Source of the DNA: a virus
Lineage: Duplodnaviria; Heunggongvirae; Uroviricota; Caudoviricetes
IMG/VR virus record: IMGVR_UViG_2684622770_000004
Strand: one strand, 5' to 3'
Length of the DNA stretch: 4,422 nt
Below the pieces are notes generated by a model. The model ran no database searches. It was not told the DNA's origin and saw nothing but the letters and a program-made list of their open reading frames with translations. Below are positions 1,245-1,889 of this stretch, piece after piece. Position numbers and translations under genes: made by a program. Every line of letters begins with the position of its first letter. Positions within the stretch are counted from its first letter, which is position 1.

Positions 1245-1889
1245 GATAAGAGGGCGTCCCTGAGATTTGCGGTGTAGATTGGTATCGCGCAGAGAATACA
1301 CACAGCCACAATATTCCTGCTGATAGAATTTTTCGCGCTTGCTGATTTCAATCATACGGGACGAGCCGCCCTGCTTGCGCCAGTTATAATCCCAGTACAC
1401 CATGCCCGGATAATGCGCGACGGCTCGCCGCCCACAGTCGTTAACCTGCTGCATATTTTTCCAGCGTGAAATGCCCAGTGAACTGCTGATCACACTGAAA
1501 CCATTTTCAGCGGCGTACAGCGCTGTCCGCTCAAAACGCATGTCAAAACACATGGTGCAACGGATCCCTCGTTCGGGCTCCCATTCCATTCCTTTGGCTC
1601 GTTCAAACCAGTTGTCTGTGTCGTAATCAGCATCAATAAACGGCACGCCGTGTTGTTCAGCAAAGCGAATATTCTCATCCTTACGAATTAAATACTCTTT
1701 CTGAGGATGAATGTTCGGGTTGTAGAAAAAGATGGTGTAGTCGATTCCCGAGGCCTGAAGCGCCTCCATCACCTCACCGGAACATGGAGCACAGCAAGAG
1801 TGCAGTAGTAGTTTGTTTGCCCCGTTTGGGAGCTCCAATTTGGGCCGTTTGAAATCAGCAACTGTCATAAATATGTTTATTGGGGTCAT
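1245..1889 (-). CDS. queH: QueH-like epoxyqueuosine reductase homolog (DUF208), 3' end lost in the N gap
   Basis: The translation carries [11 protein letters not shown] near the N-terminus, then [17 protein letters not shown] and EYCGCVYS near the end, which I recall as the Cys-containing signature motifs of DUF208/QueH. About 215 aa lie before the gap and the stop is presumably inside it. The start could be ATG at 1889 or ATG at 1868; neither has a clear Shine-Dalgarno. Confidence 0.65.

What the first reader, a model, noticed from the sequence alone, without database searches (positions are those of the whole stretch)
1245..1889. QueH-like (DUF208) gene carried on a prophage in an enterobacterial background
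The CCAPC and CGC cysteine motifs identify a DUF208/QueH-type protein, the non-orthologous replacement for QueG in the last step of queuosine tRNA modification. As far as I know, E. coli and Shigella use QueG, so a prophage-borne QueH would be an accessory gene. Phages are known to use 7-deazaguanine pathways to modify their DNA against restriction. A QueH-like enzyme in a phage nin/moron region could therefore act on tRNA or on an unknown deazaguanine substrate. The hypothesis that it is a new DNA-modification or anti-restriction function is inference only.
Basis: partly seen in the sequence, partly recalled or inferred. Interest (0 to 1): 0.7.

Follow-up and report, generated by a model that had tools for sequence, protein, structure and literature searches.

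The report
Prophage-borne QueH tRNA queuosine enzyme
This is an intact copy of QueH, the vitamin-B12-independent enzyme for the last step of the tRNA base queuosine, carried by lambda-like prophages in about one in five E. coli/Shigella genomes that already have the B12-dependent enzyme QueG; it most likely works on tRNA, not on phage DNA.

Summary
Window 1245..1889 (minus strand) encodes a QueH protein: Pfam PF02677, 220.9 bits, full-length, with all invariant cysteines and a QueH fold. The N-run hides only 13 C-terminal residues. The true start is probably the second ATG (1868), giving 221 aa.

The gene sits in a lambdoid prophage, after a DUF977 gene and usually before hokD. In this window the prophage is a remnant bracketed by two IS600 copies. 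The same gene is in 995 of 5426 complete E. coli genomes, and all 5426 have queG, so it is an accessory second oQ reductase. All 82 phage copies examined are intact, with dN/dS about 0.02.

Relatives 80-92% identical are ordinary chromosomal genes in Providencia, Photorhabdus and Enterobacter, and cargo on Klebsiella IncF plasmids.

No dpdA, folE or queC/D/E occurs in the reference prophage or in 1.2 Mb of queH-bearing phage DNA. The DNA-modification idea is therefore unsupported.

Best reading: a horizontally mobile, cobalamin-independent tRNA epoxyqueuosine reductase. RefSeq already names it QueH. However, a 2019 survey stated that no virus encodes QueA/G/H, so phage carriage appears undescribed. 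This is a new member of a known kind, of moderate interest.

The parts
1245..1868 (-). queH coding sequence, visible part (208 of 221 codons), from the supported start ATG at 1868 to the edge of the gap
   Evidence: Pfam PF02677 220.9 bits. 100% identical to WP_012421537.1 'epoxyqueuosine reductase QueH' in NZ_CP065613.1. Start choice supported.
1869..1889 (-). 7-codon upstream extension from an alternative in-frame ATG (1889); probably 5' UTR rather than coding
   Evidence: Longest ORF. The first ATG is out of frame in L070, and the extension is absent from homologues.
1143..1244 (.). Assembly gap (102 N) replacing about 259 bp: the last 13 codons plus stop of queH, then the hok mRNA leader/mok/sok region
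   Evidence: Alignment to the finished genome. Rfam RF01794 sok, 117 bits, at the matching place in L001.
1903..1911 (-). Extended -10-like motif TGCTACACT, about 35-45 nt upstream of the start codon; candidate private promoter of queH
   Evidence: The motif is conserved upstream of the phage, Klebsiella IncF plasmid and nearest chromosomal copies, whose upstream DNA is otherwise unrelated. GCTACnnT occurs in 11/79 loci against 1.1% of background windows, clustered near -45. The consensus scanner did not call it. Function is inferred.
1869..1942 (-). About 75-85 nt upstream block that travels with queH through at least four different upstream contexts
   Evidence: Alignment of 19 distinct upstream sequences from 82 loci.
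977..1132 (-). hokD type I toxin gene, the usual downstream partner of queH in the cassette
   Evidence: Annotated hokD in L001. A hok ORF follows queH in 65/82 loci.
2451..2873 (-). DUF977 winged-helix gene, last gene of the Rac-type replication module and the usual upstream neighbour of queH
   Evidence: Pfam PF06163 E 1.1e-33. Upstream of queH in 75/82 loci and.
2037..2450 (-). 137-aa zinc-ribbon-like ORF inserted between DUF977 and queH in this variant only
   Evidence: PHROG 1621, unknown function. Present in 12/82 loci.
1..95 (+). Right end of an IS600 copy that truncates the DUF1367 gene
   Evidence: 100% match to positions 1189-1283 of an IS600 region.
4311..4422 (+). Left end of a second IS600 copy in the same orientation, truncating the O-like replication gene
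   Evidence: 99% match to the IS600 start, annotated 'IS3-like element IS600 family transposase'.

Best explanation
The gene encodes a genuine QueH: a cobalamin-independent iron-sulfur epoxyqueuosine reductase. It converts epoxyqueuosine (oQ) to queuosine (Q) at wobble position 34 of the host's tRNA-Asp, -Asn, -His and -Tyr.

It was captured from the chromosomal QueH lineage of Enterobacterales. It now moves as a small cassette, with its own short 5' region and usually hok/sok behind it, in the slot between the replication module and the nin/antiterminator genes of Rac/lambda-like temperate phages. A sister copy rides on IncF plasmids in Klebsiella.

E. coli and Shigella already make oQ-tRNA and finish it with QueG, which needs a cobamide that E. 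coli cannot synthesise de novo. The mobile QueH therefore provides a second, B12-independent route to Q. The Q/oQ state of tRNA would then no longer depend on cobamide supply.

Shown here: family membership, conserved residues, fold, carriage on phages and plasmids, redundancy with queG, strong purifying selection, and absence of DNA-modification partners.

Inferred: enzymatic activity in E. coli, expression from a private extended -10 promoter, and B12-independence as the selective benefit.
For: - Family membership: Pfam QueH 220.9 bits, full length. PDB T. maritima QueH E 5e-22 by sequence. The five top fold matches are all QueH, TM 0.75-0.80 on the target.
- Conserved residues: the consensus residue is present at all 32 positions that are >=90% conserved in a 65-member family alignment, including six invariant Cys. 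CCAPC is the majority state, 61/65.
- Relatives: 80-92% identity to QueH in non-phage chromosomal contexts in Providencia (beside tmcA/purC/bamC/dapA), Photorhabdus, Enterobacter, Kluyvera and Scandinavium.
- Redundancy: queG is in 5426/5426 E. coli genomes, queH in 995/5426.
- Selection: 82/82 phage copies are intact. Median dN/dS is 0.021, against 0.096 for the neighbouring DUF977 gene and about 1 for the mok-frame ORF.
- Carriage: present in an isolated temperate coliphage, HannyBb, in 189 IMG/VR contigs, and on 305 plasmids including conjugative IncF.
- Promoter: a conserved upstream TGCTACA(C/A)T motif across unrelated contexts.
- Literature: the last step of Q synthesis in E. coli is cobalamin-dependent (Frey 1988, cited in PMC4646009). 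QueG is one of E. coli's four cobamide-dependent enzymes (PMC11841063). QueH is the cobamide-independent alternative (PMC6461909). QueG and QueH co-exist with different expression profiles in S. aureus (PMC13443448).
- Background knowledge, paper not retrievable: Zallot et al. 2017 showed that queH genes from several bacteria complement an E. coli queG mutant.
Against: - No experiment on this protein exists.
- No growth phenotype that separates oQ from Q is known for E. coli. Deleting queG did not alter growth in the one setting I read, a metE deletion strain grown with cobalamin or pseudocobalamin (PMC11841063). The selective benefit is therefore conjectural.
- The consensus promoter scan found no sigma-70 site on the gene's strand upstream of queH and no terminator after it. 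Expression in lysogens is unproven, and the gene may simply be read from the phage early-right operon.
- NCBIfam has no model hit, and PHROGs files the family as 'unknown function'.
- The model has only moderate confidence: pLDDT 74.5, with low values around the C-terminal CGC region.
Confidence: 0.78

Rival explanations
1. Phage-centred use of the same chemistry. QueH acts on host tRNA, but its selected role is in the lytic cycle or in conflict. It might boost Q-tRNA to favour translation of phage late genes. It might also change the anticodon-loop state recognised by tRNA-targeting toxins or defences.
For: - The gene lies in the early-right operon region of the phage, and the gene-strand scan finds no consensus promoter or terminator around queH.
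- Q levels rise during Shewanella phage infection, and late phage genes there favour a Q-decoded codon (PMC13191261).
- The slot next to queH collects conflict genes: hok/sok, and an NgoMIV-type R-M system.
Against: - The same clade rides on conjugative IncF plasmids and sits in plain chromosomal contexts, where no lytic cycle exists.
- It stays intact in an IS600-bracketed, replication-defective remnant.
- None of these phages encodes a Q-family tRNA.
- No evidence exists that any nuclease distinguishes oQ from Q.
Confidence: 0.1
2. Neutral passenger. queH has no adaptive role in E. coli. It persists because it is physically linked to the hok/sok addiction module and to a recombination-prone module boundary.
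For: - hok follows queH in 65/82 loci.
- QueG is universal in E. coli, so QueH is redundant on paper.
- Only 18% of genomes carry it.
Against: - dN/dS is 0.02 over dS up to 0.18, and all 82 copies are intact. Its neighbours evolve four or more times less constrained.
- It is retained where hok is replaced by other cargo.
- It is carried independently on IncF plasmids.
Confidence: 0.08
3. A QueH-like enzyme works on a 7-deazaguanine base in phage DNA, or on another deazaguanine substrate, as a new DNA-modification or anti-restriction function.
For: - Phages do use preQ0-derived bases in DNA (PMC6884629).
- PHROGs lists the family as of unknown function.
Against: - No DpdA/TGT-like transglycosylase and no FolE/QueD/QueE/QueC is annotated in the whole reference prophage.
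- None is found with phage 9g probes in 84 loci totalling 1.2 Mb. All hits have E > 2.8, and the positive controls work.
- The protein is a near-consensus orthologue of housekeeping QueH.
- No dQ was found in any phage DNA tested by Hutinet et al..
- oQ is made on tRNA by QueA, and no DNA counterpart is known (background knowledge).
Confidence: 0.02

Closest known systems
QueH (DUF208, PF02677/IPR003828), cobalamin-independent tRNA epoxyqueuosine reductase; solved example T. maritima QueH (PDB 7LC5/7LC7/9DEU)
   Same: - Full-length domain match, with six invariant cysteines and all other highly conserved residues.
- Same predicted fold.
- Same size, about 220 aa, single domain.
   Different: - About 30% identity to the solved enzyme.
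- It carries Cys where T. maritima has Asp13, a residue probed by the D13N mutant 9DCO. Cys is the family majority, 61/65.
- It is encoded on a temperate phage rather than in a cellular core genome.
Chromosomal QueH of Enterobacterales (e.g. Providencia, Photorhabdus, Erwinia, Enterobacter, Kluyvera, Scandinavium)
   Same: 80-92% amino-acid identity and the same length. The nearest relatives share the upstream TGCTACA(C/A)T motif.
   Different: Those copies lie among housekeeping or ordinary chromosomal genes, with no DUF977/hok phage flanks. 79 of 80 species loci lack them; only E. albertii shares the phage cassette.
[quoted passage not shown]
   Same: It is predicted to catalyse the same reaction on the same tRNAs, and it is present in the same cells.
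   Different: It is not homologous and needs no cobamide (PMC6461909; PMC13443448). QueG is core (5426/5426 genomes), while QueH is accessory and mobile (995/5426).
Phage 7-deazaguanine DNA-modification clusters (DpdA + FolE/QueD/QueE/QueC, e.g. phage 9g, CAjan)
   Same: Both involve enzymes of the queuosine/deazaguanine pathway encoded on a coliphage.
   Different: None of the defining genes is present. QueH belongs to the tRNA-specific late steps, which Hutinet et al. 2019 reported as absent from all viruses analysed.
Lambdoid-phage morons / lysogenic-conversion cargo (e.g. bor, lom, hok/sok, R-M cassettes)
   Same: - Small, dispensable, host-derived gene inserted at a module boundary.
- Present in only some related phages.
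- Travels with its own short 5' region.
   Different: No own terminator and no scanner-grade promoter. Its composition is not anomalous.

Membership tests
QueH (PF02677 / DUF208) | Significant full-length match to the family profile, above the curated cut-off | tested here: met
   220.9 bits against a cut-off of 23.5, E 1.6e-65, profile positions 1-174 of 175
QueH (PF02677 / DUF208) | Conserved cysteines (CCAPC ... CxxC ... CGC) that hold the [4Fe-4S] cluster and the adjacent iron | tested here: met
   C32, C33, C111, C114, C194 and C196 are invariant in 65/65 aligned members and are all present. C36 is the majority state, 61/65. Which Cys binds which metal rests on background knowledge of Li et al. 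2021, which I could not retrieve.
QueH (PF02677 / DUF208) | Other family-wide conserved residues (H30, N57, N59, E65, Y66, R69, E106, R110, K144, Q191, S199 ...) | tested here: met
   The query carries the consensus residue at all 32 positions that are >=90% conserved
QueH (PF02677 / DUF208) | QueH fold (adenine-nucleotide-alpha-hydrolase-like Rossmann core) | tested here: met
   AlphaFold model pTM 0.75. The top five PDB matches are T. maritima QueH, E 6e-10 to 3e-8, TM 0.74-0.80 on the target. Next come TtuA/TilS/LarE-type PP-loop proteins.
QueH (PF02677 / DUF208) | Reduces oQ-tRNA to Q-tRNA without cobalamin | not testable with these tools
   Needs complementation of a queG mutant and LC-MS. 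Orthology to chromosomal QueH at 80-92% identity makes it likely.
QueH (PF02677 / DUF208) | Host supplies the substrate (Tgt and QueA make oQ-tRNA) | not tested
   [quoted passage not shown] Only queG was counted here.
Phage 7-deazaguanine DNA-modification system | DpdA-type DNA guanine transglycosylase encoded by the phage | tested here: not met
   None is annotated in the complete reference prophage. There is no tblastn hit with 9g DpdA in 84 loci totalling 1.2 Mb. A very remote DpdA could escape tblastn.
Phage 7-deazaguanine DNA-modification system | preQ0 synthesis genes (FolE, QueD, QueE, QueC) on the phage | tested here: not met
   Only chance-level hits, E >= 2.8, and the positive controls work. 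None is annotated.
Lambdoid-phage moron | Dispensable insert at a module boundary, present in only some related phages | tested here: met
   It lies between the DUF977 end of the replication module and hok/nin-like genes. The replication and nin modules around it vary. It is present in 18% of genomes.
Lambdoid-phage moron | Own promoter and terminator allowing expression in the lysogen | tested here: inconclusive
   A conserved extended -10-like motif travels with the gene. However, the scanner finds no sigma-70 promoter on the gene strand upstream of queH and no terminator after it. No riboswitch is present.

The most novel reading that the evidence does not exclude
The oQ-to-Q step of tRNA queuosine synthesis is a horizontally transferable, strain-variable trait in Enterobacteriaceae. 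Temperate phages (E. coli, Shigella, E. albertii) and IncF plasmids (Klebsiella) spread a B12-independent reductase, so that lysogens complete Q when cobamides are scarce.

This would be the first Q-specific tRNA-modification enzyme shown to be phage-borne, against the 2019 statement that no virus encodes QueA/G/H. It would mean that phage carriage changes the host's decoding of NAU/NAC codons, with possible effects on fitness or virulence in cobamide-poor niches.
Probability: 0.4. Interest if true: 0.6.

Novelty: new member of a known kind. Interest (0 to 1): 0.4.

Why it matters
Standard E. coli K-12 relies on QueG and external cobamide to finish queuosine. If the prophage QueH is active, roughly one in five E. 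coli strains would make Q regardless of B12. These include APEC O1, EAEC 042, NMEC CE10, some O157:H7 and Shigella-type genomes. That is a hidden variable in studies of tRNA modification, translation fidelity and cobamide ecology.

It also corrects a published generalisation that viruses carry no Q-specific genes. And it adds a tRNA-modification enzyme to the list of cargo spread by temperate phages and conjugative plasmids.

The chemistry itself is not new, and RefSeq already labels the gene, so the advance is contextual rather than mechanistic.

Tried and rejected
- NCBIfam scan: no model hit, so the name in RefSeq cannot be traced to an NCBIfam HMM here.
- PHROGs: family 3217, 'unknown function'.
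- Consensus promoter/terminator scan around queH: nothing on the gene's strand upstream of queH, and no terminator.
- Composition profile: no GC anomaly marking a recent foreign insert.
- Rfam at permissive threshold: only the hok/sok element. There is no preQ1 or other riboswitch upstream of queH.
- Search for deazaguanine DNA-modification partners with phage 9g proteins: negative.
- Search for phage-encoded Q-family tRNAs (Asn, Asp, His, Tyr): none. Only Met/Arg/Thr/Gly/Lys/Ser and similar were found.
- Search for the phage flanks (DUF977, hok, ydaV, O-like, DUF1367 ...) around queH in 80 species representatives: found only in E. albertii.
- Primary QueH and QueG papers could not be retrieved: Zallot 2017, Li 2021, Miles 2011, Frey 1988. 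Ligand-to-metal assignments and the complementation result are therefore cited from memory or through secondary sources.
- Literature searches for queH with prophage/phage found no description of phage-borne QueH.
- Not attempted: whether queG is a pseudogene in the window's own genome, and whether Providencia or Photorhabdus lack QueG. The tools could not target a named genome.

Full report
OBSERVATION

The window holds an ORF on the minus strand from ATG 1889 down to position 1245. There it runs into a 102-base N-run at 1143-1244.

Pfam-A gives a single clear answer: PF02677 QueH, E 1.6e-65, 220.9 bits against a cut-off of 23.5, covering profile positions 1-174 of 175.

A 100% identical stretch exists in the finished chromosome NZ_CP065613.1, filed as E. 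coli FDAARGOS_944. Aligning the two shows that the N-run stands for about 259 bp. It hides only 13 residues (KIGQLHYGKEEKE) and the stop codon. The rest of the gap is the leader/mok/sok region of the neighbouring hokD gene.

The real start is probably the second ATG, at 1868. PGAP uses it, the homologues start there, and in locus L070 a 1-nt insertion puts the first ATG out of frame while the ORF from the second ATG stays intact. The protein is therefore 221 aa.

IS IT A QueH?

Sequence comparison with solved structures finds T. maritima QueH (7LC5 and others) at E 5e-22 across the whole domain.

I aligned 63 full-length representatives, drawn from a library search that found 4765 family members, together with the query and T. 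maritima QueH.
- Six cysteines are invariant in all 65 sequences, and all are present here: C32, C33, C111, C114, C194 and C196, in 228-aa numbering.
- The query has the consensus residue at every one of the 32 positions that are at least 90% conserved.
- The one visible difference from the crystal structure is Cys36 where T. maritima has Asp13. This is not a deviation: Cys is the family majority (61/65) and Asp is the minority.
- PDB entry titles show that D13 and C9 were probed by mutation, as 9DCO (D13N) and 9D86 (C9S).

An AlphaFold model (pTM 0.75, pLDDT 74.5) has the five QueH entries as its best PDB matches, with TM 0.74-0.80 on the target. PP-loop enzymes such as TtuA, TilS and LarE follow far behind.

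CONTEXT IN THIS WINDOW

On the minus strand the gene order is:
- O-like replication gene (3641-4318, disrupted)
- DnaC/IstB-like ydaV (2888-3634)
- DUF977 (2451-2873)
- a 137-aa zinc-ribbon ORF (2037-2450)
- queH
- hokD (977-1132)
- a 95-aa ORF (440-727)
- a truncated DUF1367 gene

In the finished genome this is part of a complete-looking lambdoid prophage. It runs from an integrase next to ybhA to tail-fibre genes, ipaHb and an invertase remnant next to pgl.

The window itself departs from that genome before position 95 and after about 4318. Both ends are IS600 in the same orientation. A net 8-nt length difference also splits the O-like gene. So in the window's genome queH lies in a 4.2-kb IS600-bracketed prophage remnant. 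This is typical Shigella-style decay, and the visible part of queH is still intact.

HOW COMMON, AND WHERE

The gene is in 995 of 5426 complete E. coli genomes (18%). It is almost always a single chromosomal copy, at 90-100% DNA identity. It is annotated 'epoxyqueuosine reductase QueH' in all 55 rows listed across the two searches.

queG is in 5426 of 5426 genomes.

IMG/VR holds 189 viral contigs with the gene. One isolated temperate coliphage, HannyBb, carries it, annotated 'hypothetical protein'.

I examined 82 phage or prophage copies.
- All are intact 221-aa ORFs, with 19 DNA alleles but only 6 protein variants.
- dN/dS against the window allele is 0.01-0.05, at dS up to 0.18.
- The median over all allele pairs is 0.021, compared with 0.096 for the adjacent DUF977 gene and about 1 for the mok-frame ORF.
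- DUF977 precedes queH in 75/82 loci and hok follows in 65/82. The replication and nin/antiterminator modules further out vary.
- Three divergent E. coli genomes sampled from the ranking (O157:H7 Z1831, strain 200177 and CE10) show the same placement. In O157:H7, an NgoMIV-type restriction-modification pair replaces hok.

ORIGIN

The nearest relatives are not phage genes. QueH proteins 80-92% identical occur in Erwinia, Photorhabdus, Providencia, Proteus, Pantoea, Rahnella, Enterobacter, Kluyvera, Scandinavium and many more.
- In Providencia the gene lies among dapE, tmcA, purC, bamC and dapA. In Photorhabdus it lies next to benE.
- Among 80 species representatives, only E. albertii shares the DUF977/hok flanks.
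- The closest non-Escherichia copies sit in varied chromosomal settings.
- The same clade (about 92% identity) is cargo on conjugative IncF plasmids of Klebsiella, next to repA. In all, 305 plasmids encode a QueH.

The family is unusually conserved, with 75-80% identity even to Sphingomonas and Stenotrophomonas.

The simplest history is capture of a chromosomal enterobacterial queH by mobile elements.

EXPRESSION

The consensus scanner finds no sigma-70 promoter on the gene strand upstream of queH and no terminator after it. Rfam finds no riboswitch. GC content is unremarkable.

However, a block of about 75-85 nt directly upstream travels with queH through at least four different upstream contexts. 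It contains TGCTACACT (window 1903-1911, minus strand), which is an extended -10-like element.

The same motif, TGCTACA(C/A)T, lies about 35-45 nt upstream of the start in the Klebsiella plasmid, Scandinavium, Kluyvera, Enterobacter and Symbiopectobacterium copies. Their upstream DNA is otherwise unrelated. GCTACnnT occurs in 11/79 loci against 1.1% of background windows, clustered near -45.

This suggests, but does not prove, a private promoter that would allow expression in lysogens.

THE DNA-MODIFICATION IDEA

- None is annotated anywhere in the reference prophage or in HannyBb.
- Using DpdA, FolE, QueD, Gat-QueC and QueE of phage 9g as probes, tblastn against 84 loci (1.2 Mb) gave only chance hits (E >= 2.8). 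The positive controls worked.
- None of the phage tRNA genes belongs to the Q family.

Taken together with near-consensus orthology to housekeeping QueH and carriage on plasmids, this leaves no support for a DNA-modification or anti-restriction role.

MECHANISM

The best explanation, at about 0.78 confidence, is the ordinary QueH reaction: two-electron reduction/deoxygenation of oQ34 to Q34 on tRNA-Asp/Asn/His/Tyr by an Fe-S enzyme without cobalamin.

The relevant facts from the literature are these.
- The last step in E. coli depends on cobalamin (Frey 1988, cited in PMC4646009).
- QueG is one of four cobamide-dependent enzymes of E. coli (PMC11841063).
- QueH is regarded as the cobamide-independent alternative (PMC6461909).
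- In S. aureus the two co-exist with different expression profiles, interpreted there as reflecting cofactor availability (PMC13443448).
- From memory of Zallot et al. 2017, which was not retrievable: queH genes from several bacteria complement an E. coli queG mutant, and Acinetobacter baylyi has both enzymes.

The inferred benefit is Q formation that does not depend on cobamide supply.

The weak point is that no phenotype separating oQ from Q is known in E. coli.

Rival explanations:
- a phage-centred use of the same tRNA chemistry (0.10)
- a neutral passenger linked to hok/sok (0.08), contradicted by dN/dS and by retention without hok
- DNA modification (0.02)

NOVELTY

RefSeq already names the gene, so its identity is not new. 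Its location seems not to have been described.
- Hutinet et al. [quoted passage not shown]
- My searches found no later report.
- PHROGs lists the family as of unknown function, and HannyBb's annotators left it hypothetical.

I rate it a new member of a known kind, with moderate interest (0.4). It is a clean, testable case of a tRNA-modification enzyme spread by temperate phages and plasmids. The chemistry is known, and the physiological pay-off is unproven.

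Noticed in passing
window 1-95 and 4311-4422: Both window ends are IS600 (right end and left end respectively), in the same orientation. They truncate the DUF1367 gene and the O-like replication gene, so the queH segment is a 4.2-kb IS600-bracketed prophage remnant in this genome.
   Followed up: yes
window about 3975-4030: There is a net 8-nt length difference from the finished genome in a TCT/TCC-rich stretch. It splits the 262-aa O-like replication ORF into two ORFs (3641-3910 and 4080-4343). 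This is either a real frameshift or a draft-assembly error.
   Followed up: partly
window 1143-1244 (gap); L001 19726-19901: The N-run hides the hok mRNA leader/mok/sok region (Rfam RF01794, 117 bits, in the finished genome). A promoter-like site (TTGATT-18-TAGAAT) lies directly after the queH stop codon.
   Followed up: partly
window 2037-2450 (-): A 137-aa ORF with a weak zinc-ribbon match (PHROG 1621, unknown function) lies between DUF977 and queH. It is present in only 12 of 82 queH-bearing loci.
   Followed up: partly
L175 1264-3274 (O157:H7 Z1831); 11 IMG/VR loci at +844 from the queH start: The slot just downstream of queH is variable cargo space. It usually holds hokD. In some phages it holds an NgoMIV-family restriction endonuclease plus a DNA cytosine methyltransferase instead.
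   Followed up: partly
L170 8761-10587: The reference prophage that carries the identical queH also carries the T3SS effector gene ipaHb at its distal end. The 'E. coli' FDAARGOS_944 record therefore looks Shigella-like.
   Followed up: no
L172 7001-7669 (Klebsiella pneumoniae IncF plasmid NZ_CP040995.1): A 92% identical queH is cargo on conjugative IncF plasmids, about 1.2 kb downstream of repA. In all, 305 plasmids encode a QueH (99 Klebsiella, 68 Escherichia, 48 Bacillus, 32 Ligilactobacillus).
   Followed up: partly
L090-L169 (species representatives): QueH is unusually conserved across Proteobacteria, with 75-80% identity between Enterobacterales and Sphingomonas, Stenotrophomonas or Pseudomonas. 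A few record titles (Bacillus subtilis, Candidatus Avacidaminococcus) carry near-enterobacterial copies, which suggests contamination or mis-binning.
   Followed up: no
proteins P0195 (1398 aa), P0197 (761 aa), P0209 (824 aa), P0089 (333 aa, with PF01165): In the representative library, the QueH domain also occurs fused inside much longer proteins, and once with a ribosomal protein S21 domain. These could be gene-calling run-ons or real fusions.
   Followed up: no
phage collection hits H35-H56: Eighteen unannotated 'Bacteriophage sp.' contigs from human faeces, and a few Staphylococcus and Listeria 'phage' records, encode distant QueH homologues (31-51% identity). Whether these are genuine phage genomes was not checked.
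   Followed up: no
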